DNA from: Phyllobates terribilis
Lineage: Eukaryota
Assembly: GCF_046119375.1 (NCBI RefSeq)
Contig: NW_027362767.1
Span: forward strand, 425,754,001 to 425,818,000
Length of the DNA: 64,000 nt
Direction of reading: 5' to 3'
The notes under the pieces were generated by a model, which did not search any database, was not told the origin of the DNA, and saw only the letters and a program-made list of their open reading frames with translations. Numbering within the stretch: position 1 is the stretch's first letter; the number at the start of each line of letters is the position of its first letter. Shown in pieces: positions 56,058 to 64,000 of the stretch. A program made the translations under genes and the position numbers.

Positions 56058-57971
56058 TCAGACCTGCAATTCACTTCATTAACCCTTCCTCCATCCCAGA
56101 AATGCATACATTAACCCCTCTTGCACCACAGACGTGTAGCTTCAGGGCGTTAACCCTTCTAGCAGCACAGGTTCTCAGTCTTTGAACATTAACCCTTCCT
56201 GCACCCCAGATCTATACAGTAGTTGCAGCTGCTCCACCTCCCCAATAACCCTTTATACTCCCTGCAGTTTTGTTGCGGTCCCTTTTTTCAGAGTCCGGGG
56301 TCTTGTTAACCCTTTCGCCCCTTGCTCAGATCTCCTCCGATCCTCCATCCTGTGAGTGAGAGCTCGCAGTATAATGCGAGGGCTGCAGCCATAGACAAAG
56401 GTCGGTGCCTGGAGCTATCAATCAAAGGTCATCTCTAATAATCACATGTCCTCCCACTGTCAACGGGAAGTTATGGAGGGAGCGACCCATTAACCCTTTA
56501 TTAACCCTGGGGAGAGACATTATTAGCTCTGACTATATATACTTTTATTTAGTTTTCAGTCGGTAGACTTATATCAAGTCTTGTTTTTTGCGGTACAAGT
56601 TGTACTTTTTATCATCACCATGTTAGAGTTTATACGACTTTCTGATCTTTTTTTGGGAGGCAAAGTGACAAAAAAAACAGCAATTCTGCCATTCTGAATG
56701 TTTTACATTTTGACATTCGCCGCCGTATAGAATTAATATACTTTATTAGTTTGGACAGTTGTGCATGCGGCGATTCCAAATATATATATATATATATATA
56801 CAGTACAGACCAAAAGTTTGGACACACCTTCTCATTTAAAGATTTTTCTGTATTTTCATGACTATGAAAATTGTTCATTCACACTGAAGGCATCAAAACT
56901 ATGAATTAACACATGTGGAATTATATACTTAACAAAAAAGTGTGAAACAACTGAAAATATGTCTTATATTCTAGGTTCTTCAAAGTAGCCACCTTTTGCT
57001 TTGATGACTGCTTTGCACACTCTTGGCATTCTCTTGATGAGCTTCTAGAGGTAGTCACCGGAAATGGTCTTCCAACAATCTTGAAGGAGTTCCCAGAGAT
57101 GCTTAGCACTTGTTGGCCCTTTTGCCTTCACTCTGCGGTCCAGCTCACCCCAAACCATCTCGATTGGGTTCAGGTCTGGTGACTGTGGAGGCCAGGTCAT
57201 CTGGCGTAGCACCCCATCACTCTCCTTCTTGATCAAATAGCCCTTACACAGCCTGGAGGTGTGTTTGGGGTCAATGTCCTGTTGAAAAATAAATGATGGT
57301 CCAACTAAACGCAAACCGGATGGAATAGCATGCCGCTGCAAGATGCTGTGGTAGCCATGCTGGTTCAGTATGCCTTCAATTTTGAATAAATCCCCAACAG
57401 TGTCACCAGCAAAGCACCCCCACACCATCACACCTCCTCCTCCATGCTTCACGGTGGGAACGAGGCATGTAGAGTCCATCCGTTCACCTTTTATGCGTCA
57501 CACAAAGACACGGTGGTTGGAACCAAAGATCTCAAATTTGGACTCATCAGACCAAAGCACAGATTTCCACTGGTCTAATGTCCATTCCTTGTGTTCTTTA
57601 GCCCAAACAAGTCTCTTCTGCTTGTTGCCTGTCCTTAGCAGTGGTTTCCTAGCAGCTATTTTACCATGAAGGCCTGCTGCACAAAGTCTCCTCTTAACAG
57701 TTGTTGAAGAGATGTGTCTGCTGCTAGAACTCTGTGTGGCATTGACCTGGTCTCTAATCTGAGCTGCTGTTAACCTGCAATTTCTGAGGCTGGTGACTCG
57801 GATAAACTTATCCTCAGAAGCAGAGGTGACTCTTGGTCTTCCTTTCCTGGGGCGGTCCTCATGTGAGCCAGTTTCTTTGTAGCGCTTGATGGTTTTTGCA
57901 ACTGCACTTGGGGACACTTTCAAAGTTTTCCCAATTTTTCGCACTGACTGACCTTCATTTCTTAAAGTAAT

Positions 57972-59770
57972 TGTTATGCACACGCCCGGGCTGAGCGGCG
58001 TGTGCGTGTGATTGTAGTGATTCCACTGGACCATGAACCGGAGAGTGCCTGGAGGGGCGTGACTAAGTATCTGGCCGATCCGACCAAGATGGCACGACGG
58101 CATACGACGCCAGTGCACCAGGGAGAAACCGGGCAGAGGGACCAGGTGCTACTCCAGGTCAAACTCCGGACACGGGGGTTGACCCACACAGGGATTACTG
58201 GATCAGGCTGGTTAGGCTGGCGCACAGACTGGAGGGTATAGGCAGGCACGACTGGTATGCAGGCAGGCGGGTAAAGGCAAGCGCAGCTAGAGTGCAGACA
58301 GGGAGGCACTAGCAGGTAGGAACACAGGCGGGATAGGACCCAGTACACACTGGGACTCAGGAACAATACAGGTAGAGGGGTACAGGCAAGCACAGCTAGA
58401 GTGCAGACAGGGAGGCACTAGCAGGTAGGAACACAGGCAGGATAGGACCCAGTACACACTGGGACTCAGGAACAGGCAGGTTAGGCTGGCACAGACTGGT
58501 GGATATAAGCAAACACGGCAGGTATGCAGATGGGTGGATACAGGCGAGTAAGCAGGCAGGGAGGTACTGGCCGAAAGGACGGGCTGGAGCACAGAAAGGT
58601 TAAGACCCAGTACAGACTGGGTCACAGAACCGCAGATGCGGTAGACAACCACAGCAGAGAGGGAACGCCCGAAGCGGTGGGCAAGAACAGAGCAGGACGG
58701 GGCTGCAGGAGCAGCGAGCACAAGCAGGGCAGGACAGGACTGCCGGAGCAGCGGGCAGAAGCAGGGCAGGACAGGACTGCCGGAGCAGCGGGCAGAAGCA
58801 GGGCAGGACAGGACTGCCGGAGCAGCGGGCAGAAGCAGGGCAGGACAGGACTGCCGGAGCAGCGGGCAGAAGCAGGGCAGGACAGGACTGCCGGAGCAGC
58901 GGGCAGAAGCAGGGCAGGACAGGACTGCCGGAGCAGCGGGCAGAAGCAGGGCAGGACAGGACTGCCGGAGCAGCGGGCAGAGGAGTCAGAGCAGGCTAGG
59001 CTGAGTAGGGGGGACAGGGCTCAGTTCACACGGAACAGACAGGAAGGGAAAGGCAGAGCCAGACACCCACAGGGTACTTGCAGTGAAGTAGCGAGTGGAC
59101 CACAAACTCACAAACGGGAGTACAGAGACAACAAGCAGGAGTTAGGTACGAGTTCAGACTCTGCAGAAAAAGGAAGGGAACGGACATAGAGGAAAAACAG
59201 GTAAAGGATAGGAGAGAGTTCAGACTGGAACTGAGTGTACGGAGGAGACCGACACTGCAGCGGGATACAGGAGCGGGTCTGGGAATACGGCCCCCAGAGA
59301 GGCAGGAGGAACAGGCTAGGAGCGTGTTCAGACAGGTCAGACAAGATACAGGAACAGGTCTAGGTAATCGGCCCCTAGAAGGCAGGAGGAACAGGCTAGG
59401 AGCGTGTTCAGACAGGCCTGGAAATACAGCCTCCAGGATAGGCAGACAAGAGAACACAGAACAGGACCTGGCACCTTCAGAGTGCAAGCACACACTGAAA
59501 GAAACACTATGCTCAGGCAGGGATAGAAGGGAGCTGCTGAGCTATATACCAAGTGACAGACAGCAATAGGCTGAGGACGCACAAGGGGTGTGACCCACAG
59601 CAGGTACAAAAGGCAGGAAGTGATCGGGCGCCGCCCTTAAGCAGCAGAAACAGACACAAACAGACAGCATGGAGGGAAGCCAGAGAGACATTCTGGACAG
59701 GAGATCAAGTGCGCCCTCTTGCACAGTGGGAGATGGACCACCATGCAAGGACGCCGCCAGGTATGTTACA
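57972..59770 (-). repeat. 3' LTR (1799 bp; contains 7 x 37-bp repeat at 58722-58980)
   Basis: Direct repeat of 61761-63559 (offset 3789). Confidence 0.95.
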
Positions 59771-61617
59771 GTACCTCCCCCCTTACGCCCCCTCTTCTTC
59801 AGGCCTGCCAGAATCTTCCGCAGGGAATTCGAGGGCCAGTCGTTCACTGGGTTGGAGGGGGACAGAGACTTAAGGGTAATCTCTGCTTCGAGGTACATCT
59901 TGTCAAGCTCACAGGAAGAAATAGACGGGTTATCACGTACATAATGAGGAAAAGTCACTGTCTCTTTGTTATCTGGTGGTATCCCGGAGGATTCAGGAAA
60001 CAACTGGAGGTCCTCCGCCGGGTCAGAAGAGTGCAGAGGCTCAGAGAAAACAACTGCTTCAGAGTACACTAGGTCGGACTCACTGGAGGAAGCAGGCGAG
60101 GTATCGGGTACCGAGTATAGGAAAGTCTCTGTCCATTCACCACCAGGTGGCACCCCGAAGGGTTCTGGAGACAGCTGGCGGTCCTCCGCCTGGTCAGAGG
60201 GGTGTAGAGACTCACGGGTAACCTCTGCTTCAGAGTACACTAGGTCGGACTCACTGGAGGAAGCAGGCGAGGTATCGGGTACCGAGTATAGGAAAGTCTC
60301 TGTCCATTCACCACCAGGTGGCACCCCGAAGGGTTCTGGAGACAGCTGGCGGTCCTCCGCCTGGTCAGAGGGGTGTAGAGACTCACGGGTAACCTCTGCT
60401 TCAGAGTACACTAGGTCGGACTCACTGGACGAAGCAAGCGAGGTATCAGATCCAGGATATAGGAAAGTCTCTGTCCATTCACCACCAGGTGGCACCCCGA
60501 AGGATTCTGAACACAACTGGAGGTCCTCCGCCTGGTCGGAGGGGTGTAGAGACTCAGGAGTAACCTCTGCTTCGGAGTACACTAAGTTGGACTCACTGGA
60601 CGAAGCGAGCGAGGTATCAGGTACAGAGTATAGGAGAGTCTCTGTCCTTTCGCTACCAGGTAGCACCCCGAAGGGTTCAGGAGACAACTGGAGATCCTCC
60701 GCCTGGTCGGAGGGGTGTAGAGACTCGGAGGTAACTACCACTTTGGGGTACCCATTGTCAGGCTCACAGGACGAAGCGGACAAAGTATTGAGTACCGGGT
60801 GTAGAGAAGTCTCTCTCCATTTGTCATCGAGTGGTATCCCGGAGGGTTCAGGAGGCAACAGGGGATCCTCCGCCAGGTAGTAGAGGTGCACAGACTCTGA
60901 GGTAACCACAGCTTTGGAGCATCCTTGGACATGCACACCGGTAAAAGAGAAAGAAGCATCTGATGCCGGGTGCAGGAAGTTCTCCTGTGTGGAGTCTGGA
61001 TGGGCAGAAGTCTCTTCGGCCAGGAGAACTGGTGCACTACCCACGCACATTACCCATTGGGGTTTCTCCGGGATACAGGGAGATGAAGCTTCAGTAGGGA
61101 CTTCAAGGTTGGGGTCAGGAGGTCTCAGGGAGGACAGACCCTGGCGTGACGGCTTGCCTCTACGTCTAGCACGTCTGGACTGCCTCTTGAGGTTGAGAGA
61201 AGTATTCCGGAAAGCGTAGTCACCCTGTGAGGATTCTGGGTGGGCAGTAGTCTCATTGGGCTGGAGGACTATTGCGCTACCCACACACATTACCCGTCGG
61301 GGCTGCTCCGGGATATTGGGAAGTGAAGCTTCAGCAGGGGCTTCAGAGTTAGGGTCCTCGAAGACCATACGAAAGGCCACCAGGAAGGCCTGCAGGTCAA
61401 GGATGACAGGATCCCATGCTTCCCATAGGGGGGTGACCCATTTCAAGGCATCACCCGCTAGGTAGTCAATCATAAAGGCCACTTTAGCCCAATCGGAAGG
61501 AAAATAGAGAGGGTAGGCCTTAAAGTGTAGCATGCATTGCTCCACAAATGCACGACACTGTCTTGGATCCCCATAGTAACGTGGCGGATCCGCAGGAACG
61601 AGGGCTGATAGATCCAT
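59542..61617 (-). CDS. Gag-like N-terminal domain (sushi/RTL/LDOC1-type) fused to 57-aa acidic Ser/Pro-rich tandem repeats, 691 aa
   Basis: PPRYYGDPRQCRAFVEQC..FPSDWAKVAFMIDYLAGDALKW..LQAFLVAFRMVFEDP resembles retrotransposon Gag N-terminal domains. The ORF is uninterrupted, with a 171-nt periodic interior. Confidence 0.8.
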   Translation of the reverse strand: MDLSALVPADPPRYYGDPRQCRAFVEQCMLHFKAYPLYFPSDWAKVAFMIDYLAGDALKWVTPLWEAWDPVILDLQAFLVAFRMVFEDPNSEAPAEASLPNIPEQPRRVMCVGSAIVLQPNETTAHPESSQGDYAFRNTSLNLKRQSRRARRRGKPSRQGLSSLRPPDPNLEVPTEASSPCIPEKPQWVMCVGSAPVLLAEETSAHPDSTQENFLHPASDASFSFTGVHVQGCSKAVVTSESVHLYYLAEDPLLPPEPSGIPLDDKWRETSLHPVLNTLSASSCEPDNGYPKVVVTSESLHPSDQAEDLQLSPEPFGVLPGSERTETLLYSVPDTSLASSSESNLVYSEAEVTPESLHPSDQAEDLQLCSESFGVPPGGEWTETFLYPGSDTSLASSSESDLVYSEAEVTRESLHPSDQAEDRQLSPEPFGVPPGGEWTETFLYSVPDTSPASSSESDLVYSEAEVTRESLHPSDQAEDRQLSPEPFGVPPGGEWTETFLYSVPDTSPASSSESDLVYSEAVVFSEPLHSSDPAEDLQLFPESSGIPPDNKETVTFPHYVRDNPSISSCELDKMYLEAEITLKSLSPSNPVNDWPSNSLRKILAGLKKRGRKGGGTVTYLAASLHGGPSPTVQEGALDLLSRMSLWLPSMLSVCVCFCCLRAAPDHFLPFVPAVGHTPCASSAYCCLSLGI
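59771..59800 (-). promoter_or_regulatory. Polypurine tract of the LTR element
   Basis: GAAGAAGAGGGGGCGTAAGGGGGGAGGTAC immediately before the 3' LTR TG. Confidence 0.85.
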
Positions 61618-61748
61618 CTGGACGGGTGCGTAATTCGCCTGGAACTAGCTAAAGGGGGAAAAAAAATTTATTTATTTTATTTTAATGCATGTATTCGCTG
61701 GAAAAACTTCTCAAAGAGCGAAGGCCGTGGGGCTCAACGGGAACCATG

Positions 61749-61760
61749 GCCTGAGCATGC
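61749..61760 (-). promoter_or_regulatory. Primer-binding-site position: GC-ATGCTCAGGC, complementary to the predicted transcript 5' end (self-priming type)
   Basis: No TGG tRNA-CCA complement at the LTR junction. 10/10 reverse-complement match to GCCTGAGCAT at 63307-63298. Confidence 0.7.
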
Positions 61761-63559
61761 TGTTATGCACACGCCCGGGCTGAGCGGCGTGTGCGTGTGA
61801 TTGTAGTAATTCCACTGGACCATGAACCGGAGAGTGCCTGGAGGGGCGTGACTAAGTATCTGGCCGATCCGACCAAGATGGCACGACGGCATACGACGCC
61901 AGTGCACCAGGGAGAAACCGGGCAGAGGGACCAGGTGCTACTCCAGGTCAAACTCCGGACACGGGGGTTGACCCACACAGGGATTACTGGATCAGGCTGG
62001 TTAGGCTGGCGCACAGACTGGAGGGTATAGGCAGGCACGACTGGTATGCAGGCAGGCGGGTAAAGGCAAGCGCAGCTAGAGTGCAGACAGGGAGGCACTA
62101 GCAGGTAGGAACACAGGCGGGATAGGACCCAGTACACACTGGGACTCAGGAACAATACAGGTAGAGGGGTACAGGCAAGCACAGCTAGAGTGCAGACAGG
62201 GAGGCACTAGCAGGTAGGAACACAGGCAGGATAGGACCCAGTACACACTGGGACTCAGGAACAGGCAGGTTAGGCTGGCACAGACTGGTGGATATAAGCA
62301 AACACGGCAGGTATGCAGATGGGTGGATATAGGCGAGTAAGCAGGCAGGGAGGTACTGGCCGAAAGGACGGGCTGGAGCACAGAAAGGTTAAGACCCAGT
62401 ACAGACTGGGTCACAGAACCGCAGATGCGGTAGACAACCACAGCAGAGAGGGAACGCCCGAAGCGGTGGGCAAGAACAGAGCAGGACGGGGCTGCAGGAG
62501 CAGCGAGCACAAGCAGGGCAGGACAGGACTGCCGGAGCAGCGGGCAGAAGCAGGGCAGGACAGGACTGCCGGAGCAGCGGGCAGAAGCAGGGCAGGACAG
62601 GACTGCCGGAGCAGCGGGCAGAAGCAGGGCAGGACAGGACTGCCGGAGCAGCGGGCAGAAGCAGGGCAGGACAGGACTGCCGGAGCAGCGGGCAGAAGCA
62701 GGGCAGGACAGGACTGCCGGAGCAGCGGGCAGAAGCAGGGCAGGACAGGACTGCCGGAGCAGCGGGCAGAGGAGTCAGAGCAGGCTAGGCTGAGTAGGGG
62801 GGACAGGGCTCAGTTCACACGGAACAGACAGGAAGGGAAAGGCAGAGCCAGACACCCACAGGGTACTTGCAGTGAAGTAGCGAGTGGACCACAAACTCAC
62901 AAACGGGAGTACAGAGACAACAAGCAGGAGTTAGGTACGAGTTCAGACTCTGCAGAAAAAGGAAGGGAACGGACATAGAGGAAAAACAGGTAAAGGATAG
63001 GAGAGAGTTCAGACTGGAACTGAGTGTACGGAGGAGACCGACACTGCAGCGGGATACAGGAGCGGGTCTGGGAATACGGCCCCCAGAGAGGCAGGAGGAA
63101 CAGGCTAGGAGCGTGTTCAGACAGGTCAGACAAGATACAGGAACAGGTCTAGGTAATCGGCCCCTAGAAGGCAGGAGGAACAGGCTAGGAGCGTGTTCAG
63201 ACAGGCCTGGAAATACAGCCTCCAGGATAGGCAGACAAGAGAACACAGAACAGGACCTGGCACCTTCAGAGTGCAAGCACACACTGAAAGAAACACTATG
63301 CTCAGGCAGGGATAGAAGGGAGCTGCTGAGCTATATACCAAGTGACAGACAGCAATAGGCTGAGGACGCACAAGGGGTGTGACCCACAGCAGGTACAAAA
63401 GGCAGGAAGTGATCGGGCGCCGCCCTTAAGCAGCAGAAACAGACACAAACAGACAGCATGGAGGGAAGCCAGAGAGACATTCTGGACAGGAGATCAAGTG
63501 CGCCCTCTTGCACAGTGGGAGATGGACCACCATGCAAGGACGCCGCCAGGTATGTTACA
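61761..63559 (-). repeat. 5' LTR (1799 bp; minus-strand TATATAG at 63337-63331)
   Basis: Direct repeat of 57972-59770; only two substitutions seen (58019/61808, 58541/62330). Confidence 0.95.
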
Positions 63560-64000
63560 GTAATGATGGCCACTCGTTTTTCTTTACTTAGCTGCTTTTT
63601 TCTTGCCATAATACAAATTCTAACAGTCTATTCAGTAGGACTATCAGCTGTGTATCCACCAGACTTCTGCACAACACAACTGATGGTCCCAACCCCATTT
63701 ATAAGGCAAGAAATCCCACTTATTAAACCTGACAGGGCACACCTGTGAAGTGAAAACCATTTCCAGTGACTACCTCTTGAAGCTCATCAAGAGAATGCCA
63801 AGAGAGTGCAAAGCAGTCATCAAAGCAAAAGGTGGCTACTTTGAAGAACCTAGAATATAAGACATATTTTCAGCTGTTTCACACTTTTTTGTTAAGTATA
63901 TAATTCCACATGTGGTAATTCATAGTTTTGATGCCTTCAGTGTGAATGTACAATTTTCATAGTCATGAAAATACAGAAAAATCTATAAATGAGAAGGTGT

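What the first reader, a model, noticed from the sequence alone, without database searches (positions are those of the whole stretch)
57972..63559. Young gag-only LTR retroelement encoding a Gag-domain plus tandem-repeat protein
Seen: complete LTR-interior-LTR structure with TSD and PPT. The whole 2-kb interior is one intact 691-aa ORF with no protease, RT, RNase H or integrase. The first ~90 aa resemble the Gag N-terminal domain of sushi-type Ty3/gypsy elements. Established: that lineage gave rise to mammalian RTL/LDOC1 short-Gag genes. Inference: this is a recently mobilised non-autonomous family that borrows Pol in trans but keeps its own modified Gag-fusion protein. That protein could bias packaging, interfere with helper capsids, or be a domestication precursor.
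Basis: partly seen in the sequence, partly recalled or inferred. Interest (0 to 1): 0.8.

Follow-up and report, generated by a model that had tools for sequence, protein, structure and literature searches.

The report
Half-capsid jumping gene, thousands of copies
This is one copy of a young, very abundant parasitic retrotransposon family that has lost all its enzymes and half of its capsid gene yet keeps one long open reading frame; enzyme-less elements like this are known in frogs, fish and plants, but keeping only half a capsid resembles certain mammalian host genes.

Summary
Confirmed, with corrections. A minus-strand LTR element (57972-63559; 1,799-nt LTRs, 2 mismatches; 5-bp TSD) sits inside a Tc1 transposon. 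It belongs to a young family with at least 8,772 internal copies. None of 40 position-sampled copies is long enough to carry Pol. It primes on its own RNA (Tf1/sushi type). The ORF is not a whole Gag: it has only the capsid N-terminal lobe, an Arg-rich patch, 57-aa acidic repeats, a Pol C-terminal remnant and 76 variable residues read into the 3' LTR. Older copies keep decayed protease, RT-start and chromodomain remnants, so this is an old deletion derivative of a co-resident chromovirus lineage (capsid lobe 47-58% identical), the likely helper. Across copies the frame is preserved (0 shared stops, about 6 expected). The capsid lobe is moderately constrained (shared dN/dS 0.40-0.50; private changes about 1.0); the tail is near neutral. 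Expression and binding are untested. Gag-only mobile families are published (zebrafish Bik-1/2, Xenopus 1a11, plant TR-GAG). The half-capsid in a mobile family, paralleling mammalian RTL8/LDOC1, is the distinctive part. New variant of a known kind.

The parts
61761..63559 (-). 5' LTR, 1,799 nt, TG...CA, with internal 37-, 80- and 109-bp tandem repeats
57972..59770 (-). 3' LTR, 2 mismatches to the 5' LTR (0.11%)
63560..63564 (+). Target-site duplication GTAAT, right copy
57967..57971 (+). Target-site duplication GTAAT, left copy
63332..63337 (-). TATA-like box (LTR position 223)
   Evidence: promoter role inferred
63298..63307 (-). Self-primer: 10 nt at LTR 253-262, the inferred transcript 5' end, complementary to the PBS
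   Evidence: present in 66 of 69 copies
61749..61758 (-). Primer-binding site of self-priming type, 2 nt after the 5' LTR
   Evidence: same geometry in L193 and L194
61618..61747 (-). Leader: decayed 5' end of gag. The ancestral ATG now opens a 21-codon uORF; an A-rich stretch and a polypyrimidine-AG acceptor-like motif follow
   Evidence: DNA match to the autonomous gag start, 0 of 200 shuffles; AG in 70 of 72 copies, ancestral ATG in frame in 0 of 72; splicing not shown
59542..61617 (-). Single 691-aa ORF
61348..61593 (-). Capsid N-terminal lobe (aa 9-90; DUF4939-like, helical)
61123..61197 (-). Arg/Lys-rich patch (aa 141-165; 10 K+R, no D/E), probably descended from the basic stretch between capsid and nucleocapsid
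   Evidence: collinearity shown through older copy L173; no constraint detected
59975..60914 (-). 171-bp (57-aa) acidic Ser/Pro-rich tandem repeat, 5.5 copies; origin unknown
59764..59823 (-). Remnant of the Pol C-terminus (aa 599-618), overlapping the PPT
   Evidence: 69-74% identity to L193-L195 Pol ends
59775..59784 (-). Polypurine tract, followed by a GTAC spacer
59542..59770 (-). LTR-encoded read-through tail (76 aa), not conserved in frame among copies
56824..64000 (-). Host Tc1/mariner transposon; its transposase gene is interrupted near the start by the insertion (right arm runs off the window)
   Evidence: inverted arms 249 nt, 97%; Pfam HTH_Tnp_Tc3_2 and DDE_3

Best explanation
A non-autonomous, self-priming Tf1/sushi-type (vertebrate chromovirus) LTR retrotransposon family that arose long ago by internal decay of a gag-pol element and has amplified recently to about 9,000 or more internal copies. 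SHOWN: the structure, youth, copy number, ancestry, absence of Pol, preserved frame and moderate constraint on the capsid lobe. INFERRED: the RNA starts near LTR position 253, its first 10 nt pair with the PBS, and RT/RNase H, integrase and a complete capsid come in trans from co-resident full-length chromoviruses that share the PPT and terminal motifs. Copies that go on transposing must be translated through the whole interior, most simply because an early stop destabilises the RNA; the repeat tail acts as a sequence-indifferent spacer. The half-capsid is kept folded because it takes part in helper particle assembly through lobe-lobe contacts and so raises this family's share of packaged RNA. 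This last step is the weakest (about 0.4).
For: Copy number: 8,772 exact PPT-LTR junctions, 5,556 exact LTR-PBS junctions of one variant, 25,627 LTR ends, controls 0. 30 of 30 PPT loci and 10 of 10 PBS loci have this kind of interior. Of 40 position-sampled copies, 31 of the 35 parsed ORFs are open to the PPT; median LTR divergence 0.19% (34 pairs); TSDs match in 32 of 34. Self-priming match in 66 of 69 copies, a Tf1/sushi trait (PMC6317226, passages). Ancestry: Pol C-terminus 69-74% identical, U5 78% over 107 nt, related PBS; decayed protease/RT start in L170 and L173, E 1e-11 to 1e-14; chromodomain remnant, E about 1e-4 to 2e-6. Frame: 0 shared stops against 6.0 expected in aa 9-300, and 6 private stops against 7.1. 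Net ORF length is a multiple of 3 in 64 of 70 copies; 3 of 3 shared ORF indels are in frame against 25 of 96 in the LTR. Capsid lobe shared dN/dS is 0.40 (p 0.0006) or 0.50 (p 0.012), private 0.97-1.02; deep pairs 0.20-0.51. No near-identical full Gag donor was found. A lone N-lobe can enter and bind full capsids: RTL8-PEG10 (PMC11684626, passages).
Against: There is no expression, translation or binding evidence. The shared-versus-private contrast in the lobe is borderline: Fisher p 0.045 and 0.13. The lobe holds about 2.5 times more shared synonymous variation per site than the tail (0.42 vs 0.17), so its alleles are older and recombined, and part of the constraint may predate the current family. 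The 171-bp unit makes repeat-number changes in frame automatically, so the indel test rests on few independent events. Ty1 and HIV-1 Gag show no cis-preference (PMC3945221, passages), which weakens a cis-packaging role; in RTL8 the lone lobe inhibits rather than helps. The helper is only 47-58% identical in the lobe and its LTR termini differ after the first bases. The Arg-rich patch shows no detectable constraint.
Confidence: 0.6

Rival explanations
1. Translation-only constraint. The open frame protects the RNA, but the protein does nothing. The lobe's low dN/dS is inherited from older, then-functional Gag alleles shuffled in by recombination.
For: Tail dN/dS 0.84-0.98 with no shared stops. 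Excess old variation and A/B mosaics in the lobe. Sampled copies with damaged or missing lobes exist (L170, L209). A paper suggests minimal translation rather than Gag is what stabilises Ty1 RNA (PMC3945221, passage).
Against: The A and B alleles are 77% identical to each other but only 47-58% to any full Gag examined, and a motif search found no full-Gag sister (1 unrelated hit). So the constrained divergence seems to have arisen inside the Pol-less lineage. The model still folds confidently (pLDDT 88).
Confidence: 0.25
2. Interference or copy-number control. The half-capsid poisons helper particle assembly, like RTL8 on PEG10 or Ty1 p22, and is favoured by host-level selection or by competition between elements.
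For: The N-lobe-only architecture matches RTL8, which lowers PEG10 particle abundance. The family's junction count (8,772) exceeds that of the one helper subtype counted (4,236). Two deep lobe alleles coexist.
Against: The selection seen is on lineages that keep transposing; a family that depends on the helper would lose by blocking it. No fixed, old, LTR-less locus was seen.
Confidence: 0.1
3. No selection at all: the intact ORFs only reflect very recent bursts from a few master copies.
For: Median LTR divergence is 0.19%; 150 of 150 scored hits are identical in aa 1-91.
Against: Subfamilies differing by 5-25% and carrying different large in-frame rearrangements all keep the frame. 0 shared stops against 6.0 expected. 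Synonymous excess in the lobe.
Confidence: 0.05

Closest known systems
Tf1/sushi (V-clade) chromoviruses, Metaviridae; co-resident full-length elements L193-L195
   Same: Self-priming PBS geometry, 5-bp TSD, PPT with GTAC spacer, capsid lobe 47-58% identical, homologous Pol C-terminus and U5.
   Different: No protease, RT, RNase H, integrase, capsid C-lobe or zinc knuckle; a new repeat tail; a longer LTR; a new start codon.
Zebrafish BHIKHARI Bik-1/Bik-2 (PMC12067270, passages)
   Same: Young, mobile, LTR-bounded, one long Gag-derived ORF (617 aa in Bik-1), no pol, partner element needed.
   Different: Bik is described as an endogenous lokiretrovirus with a coiled coil and a capsid domain, has few intact copies (7 and 5), and has a shown developmental role. 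This family is chromovirus-derived, N-lobe only, with thousands of copies and no function shown.
Xenopus laevis 1a11 and xretpos (PMC4585706, passages)
   Same: LTR elements without pol homology; 1a11 encodes a 71-kDa Gag-like protein, similar in size.
   Different: Tens of ORF copies. Sequence relationship to this family was not tested; the original descriptions were not read.
Plant TR-GAG elements (PMC4350172, abstract and passages)
   Same: LTRs plus a single Gag ORF, no Pol, still active, helper not near-identical.
   Different: Under 4 kb, in plants; TR-GAG1 encodes a Gag precursor with a zinc finger. Selection is not discussed there (0 occurrences of the term).
Mammalian half-capsid genes RTL8 and LDOC1 (PMC11684626 and PMC10516033, passages)
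   Same: Capsid N-lobe only with the fold kept and neighbouring regions diversified or disordered; DUF4939-type lobe.
   Different: Those are fixed host genes; this is a mobile multi-copy element. It is a parallel truncation, not shown to be an ancestor or ortholog.

Membership tests
Tf1/sushi (V-clade) chromovirus lineage | Self-priming PBS complementary to the transcript 5' end | tested here: met
   10-nt match 30 nt after the TATA start; 66 of 69 copies. The transcript start itself is inferred.
Tf1/sushi (V-clade) chromovirus lineage | TG...CA LTRs, PPT, 5-bp TSD | tested here: met
   (TSD in 32 of 34)
Tf1/sushi (V-clade) chromovirus lineage | Gag capsid homologous to chromodomain-bearing gag-pol elements | tested here: met
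   (P0039 has Chromo)
Tf1/sushi (V-clade) chromovirus lineage | Intact Pol (PR-RT-RH-IN-chromodomain), i.e. an autonomous member | tested here: not met
   No Pol family; remnants only. It is a non-autonomous derivative.
Tf1/sushi (V-clade) chromovirus lineage | Placement by RT phylogeny with sushi-ichi and Amn elements | not tested
   The element has no RT and no tree of the helper RT was built. The V-clade label rests on self-priming plus chromodomain.
TR-GAG | LTRs with a single Gag-derived ORF and no Pol; evidence of recent mobility | tested here: met
TR-GAG | Length under 4 kb | tested here: not met
   5,588 nt
TR-GAG | ORF codes for a Gag precursor (capsid plus nucleocapsid) | tested here: not met
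   N-lobe only; no Retrotrans_gag, Ty3_capsid or zinc knuckle, which full Gags here do match
BHIKHARI-type gag-only endogenous retroviruses | Young gag-only family complemented in trans | tested here: met
BHIKHARI-type gag-only endogenous retroviruses | Retroviral (lokiretrovirus) origin with coiled coil and capsid domain | tested here: not met
   Homology is to chromovirus Gag and Pol; the N-terminal region has decayed into the leader
Domesticated half-capsid genes (RTL8/LDOC1 type) | Capsid N-lobe only, fold retained | tested here: met
   Sequence position within Gag. Fold matches capsid lobes: dArc1 Z 9.0, rmsd 3.8, 80 aligned; Ty3 CA-NTD Z 7.1, rmsd 2.4, 72 aligned. The fold alone does not separate N- from C-lobe.
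Domesticated half-capsid genes (RTL8/LDOC1 type) | Fixed, immobile, orthologous host locus | tested here: not met
   This copy is a recent insertion among thousands. Whether some other copy is domesticated was not tested.
Domesticated half-capsid genes (RTL8/LDOC1 type) | Binds or enters full-length capsids | not tested

The most novel reading that the evidence does not exclude
A satellite-like retrotransposon whose selected product is a lone capsid N-lobe on a long disposable tail. It co-assembles with, and exploits or modulates, the capsids of a distant helper chromovirus, with two recombining lobe alleles tracking helper variants. It would be a still-mobile counterpart of the half-capsid architecture otherwise described in fixed mammalian genes (RTL8, LDOC1), showing that this truncation can be selected before any domestication.
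Probability: 0.35. Interest if true: 0.8.

Novelty: new variant of a known kind. Interest (0 to 1): 0.56.

Why it matters
Gag-only elements raise an open question: why keep a gene when the helper supplies everything? The TR-GAG paper raises it too. This family allows a test. It has thousands of young copies, a built-in neutral control (private mutations), visible intermediate stages of decay, and a split between a constrained capsid lobe and a free tail. If the lobe works on helper capsids, it offers a selfish-element route to the half-capsid architecture of RTL8/LDOC1. By rough arithmetic on exact-match counts the family occupies about 60-70 Mb, around 0.6% of a 10.6-Gb assembly, so it also bears on how giant genomes grow.

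Tried and rejected
Word-indexed protein searches with the whole ORF and with aa 1-95 found nothing at E<=0.001 (lengths 380-1210 only); the full HMMER library search did. PDB sequence search: no capsid match. Foldseek: no match at E<=0.001, though capsids rank on top. Expression: no RNA holder listed. Laying contigs of 4 runs (X1, X3, X5, X7; 4 of 10 listed) on 60915-62050 showed presence only, including under a second organism label, and no splice joint at the acceptor-like motif; this is no evidence either way. Splice donor: no strong site in the LTR by a rough matrix recalled from memory. No AATAAA/ATTAAA in the LTR, so the poly(A) site is unknown. Repeat origin: no significant match to helper Gag or Pol at protein or DNA level (36-248 of 300 and 36-113 of 200 shuffles as good). 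An autonomous element sharing the exact PBS junction: 34 variant junctions, 4 examined, all this family. A closer full Gag: 14 motif hits, 10 examined, 47-58% identical. The two 'shared stops' were artefacts of multi-base codon changes and vanish in the codon-based count. No complex prediction was obtained. Earlier scan notes: nothing found. Literature: 10 searches; some searches sought a vertebrate non-autonomous, truncated-Gag or half-capsid family and listed none. Subscription journals and Repbase/Dfam are not covered, so prior annotation cannot be excluded. No supplements were read.
Full report
OBSERVATION. The element lies on the minus strand at exactly the stated limits. The LTRs are 63559-61761 and 59770-57972, 1,799 nt each, differing at 2 positions, with a 5-bp duplication GTAAT and a 1,990-nt interior. 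It interrupts the transposase gene of a Tc1 element whose arms are 97% complementary. The 691-aa ORF (61617-59542) starts 143 nt into the interior and ends 229 nt inside the 3' LTR. Pfam finds only DUF4939 at aa 11-86 (E 2.9e-6, below the curated cut-off).

PRIMING. The 10 nt after a 2-nt spacer behind the 5' LTR are complementary to LTR positions 253-262, 30 nt after the start of a TATA-like box. The match holds in 66 of 69 copies with a usable 5' LTR (one mis-parsed LTR left out). Self-priming is described for the Tf1/sushi group (PMC6317226, passages). The transcript start is inferred, not mapped.

PROTEIN. A search of 1.84 billion representatives with aa 1-95 gave 1,466 hits. The best are 52-56% identical, and in most of the best hits the match lies 50-100 residues into Gag; several of the 8 proteins scanned continue into protease, RT, integrase or chromodomain. 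The window's homology stops where the capsid C-lobe begins. The AlphaFold model (pLDDT 88, five helices) matches capsid lobes: 22 of 48,161 chains scored Z>=5, topped by dArc1 (Z 9.0, rmsd 3.8, 80 aligned), with Ty3 CA-NTD at Z 7.1, rmsd 2.4, 72 aligned. These Z values are modest for a helical domain and Foldseek gave nothing at E<=0.001, so the assignment rests on sequence. After the lobe come an Arg-rich patch (aa 141-165), 5.5 acidic 57-aa repeats, 20 residues homologous to the Pol end, and 76 LTR-encoded residues. The stop lies 226 nt into the LTR in 27 of 54 open copies and anywhere from -14 to +460 in the rest, so that last stretch is incidental.

FAMILY. The assembly has 10.57 Gb. Exact patterns give 8,772 PPT-LTR junctions, 5,556 LTR-PBS junctions of one variant and 25,627 LTR ends, with reversed controls 0. 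All 150 scored protein hits were identical over aa 1-91 (149 on contig C1); 135 of 150 sit in open frames of 590 aa or more, none above 823, and 126 of 150 lie near 57-aa steps. The first 30 PPT loci and first 10 PBS loci along C1 all had this kind of interior. I fetched 40 of the first 41 PPT places on C1 (one tandem neighbour skipped). 37 parsed as PBS-PPT pairs with interiors of 1.4-2.9 kb and 35 had a parsed start; 31 of these 35 are open to the PPT. LTR divergence has median 0.19% (0-3.0%, 34 pairs) and TSDs match in 32 of 34. Of the 5 unparsed: L158 is open, L166 is open with a changed start codon, L171 is frameshifted, and L170 and L173 are an older type. A further 37 stretches chosen by DNA similarity have more broken ORFs.

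ANCESTRY AND HELPER. A public full Gag (P0002) found many full-Gag elements in the genome. Three fetched whole (L193-L195) have gag and pol; L194 matches protease, RT, RNase H and integrase and L193 a chromodomain; all three carry stops or frame breaks in pol. L193 and L194 show 5-bp TSDs and the same 10-nt self-priming geometry. Shared with the window: the PPT region (80-84% over 43-51 nt), the Pol end (69-74%), a U5 stretch (78% over 107 nt, L195) and the first ~50 nt after the PBS (0 of 200 shuffles). The ancestral gag ATG survives but is in frame and open in 0 of 72 copies. L170 and L173 keep the helper-type PBS (458 such junctions), a decayed post-capsid region (0 of 300 shuffles) and decayed protease plus RT start (28% identity, E 1e-11 to 1e-14) in one long frame. 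At least 48 of 70 compared copies carry a 195-bp segment that the window's subfamily lacks; it is a decayed chromodomain. The series is therefore full element, then fused decayed gag-pro-RT with repeats, then loss of pro-RT, then loss of the chromodomain remnant; the order is inferred from content, not from a rooted tree. The lobe is only 47-58% identical to 25 full-Gag loci examined, against 77% between the family's own two alleles. A pattern joining the family's lobe motif to a full-Gag junction gave 1 unrelated hit. The L193/L194-type PPT junction occurs 4,236 times (interiors not examined). These elements are the likely helper; this is inference.

SELECTION. Pairwise Nei-Gojobori over 54 open copies gave 0.26-0.42 for aa 1-91 and 0.71-1.13 for three tail regions, repeats excluded (pairs not independent). 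Splitting variants into private (one copy) and shared, with L152, L167 and L062 left out for large indels: single-base counting on 68 copies gave lobe shared 0.40 (p 0.0006), private 0.97, Fisher 0.045, tail shared 0.98. Codon counting on 69 rows gave lobe shared 0.50 (p 0.012), private 1.02, Fisher 0.13, tail shared 0.84 (not significant). Shared stops were 0 against 2.5 plus 3.5 expected; private stops were 6 against 7.1. Net length to the Pol remnant is a multiple of three in 64 of 70 copies; shared indels are in frame in 3 of 3 ORF events against 25 of 96 LTR events, the latter inflated by alignment fragmentation. Deep pairs give lobe 0.20-0.51 and linker 1.0-1.1. Against: the lobe has 0.42 shared synonymous changes per site versus 0.17 in the tail, two alleles with recombinants and a tandem duplication in L102, so some of the constraint may be old.

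MECHANISM. Most likely: the RNA self-primes and borrows enzymes and capsid in trans; translation through the interior is needed for a copy to propagate; the lobe is kept because it engages helper capsid assembly. RTL8 shows that a lone N-lobe can bind and enter full capsids, where it inhibits (PMC11684626, passages). Ty1 and HIV-1 Gag lack cis-preference, and translation itself may stabilise Ty1 RNA (PMC3945221, passages); this favours the RNA-stability part and weakens the packaging part. Nonsense-mediated decay as the cause is my inference from general knowledge. An acceptor-like motif precedes the start in 70 of 72 copies but no splicing was shown. I put the identity of the element at about 0.95, selection for translation at about 0.8, and a role of the lobe in helper particles at about 0.4.

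COMPARISON AND NOVELTY. Mobile gag-only LTR families are known: zebrafish Bik-1/2 (PMC12067270, passages), Xenopus 1a11 and xretpos (PMC4585706, passages) and plant TR-GAG (PMC4350172, abstract and passages). Half-capsid proteins are known as fixed mammalian genes (PMC10516033, passages). I found no paper on a mobile half-capsid family in searches of an open-access library, which does not cover repeat databases. It works like a TR-GAG or Bik element but fails their membership tests on Gag completeness, and it is not a domesticated gene. Verdict: real, a new variant of a known kind, interest 0.56.

Noticed in passing
L102 (G000:C1:9333529-9336548): A family copy with two tandem capsid N-lobes in frame, resembling the A and B alleles found singly in other copies; a possible source of the allele mosaics.
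   Followed up: partly
L170, L173: Older subtype (LTR divergence about 3-4%, 5-bp TSDs) with helper-type PBS and decayed protease/RT-start sequence in a long open frame; 458 such junctions genome-wide.
   Followed up: partly
L052, L067; G000:C1 near 86.49, 579.03 and 880.48 Mb: Tandem arrays of the element that appear to share LTRs (spacing 2.3-4 kb).
   Followed up: no
L209 (G000:C10:83557500-83558600): Variant in which the lobe is deleted and the PBS-proximal ATG runs straight into the lobe's end; the same junction sequence occurs at 10 of the 34 places, of which only this one was read.
   Followed up: partly
L062: A family LTR inserted inside another copy's ORF.
   Followed up: no
window:37132-37400 (-): The end of an open frame reads like the first coding exon of a 1-acylglycerol-3-phosphate acyltransferase (AGPAT-like; label recalled, not tested), about 20 kb from the element on the same strand.
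   Followed up: no
window:32329-34200 (-): Long open frame that looks like a piggyBac-type transposase (label recalled, not tested).
   Followed up: no
window:20200-22900 (+): Frameshifted endonuclease-RT frames that look like a CR1/L2-type LINE (label recalled, not tested).
   Followed up: no
62 matched TSDs: Target-site bias: position 2 is T or A in 51 of 62 and almost never G; positions 1 and 5 lean C/G.
   Followed up: no
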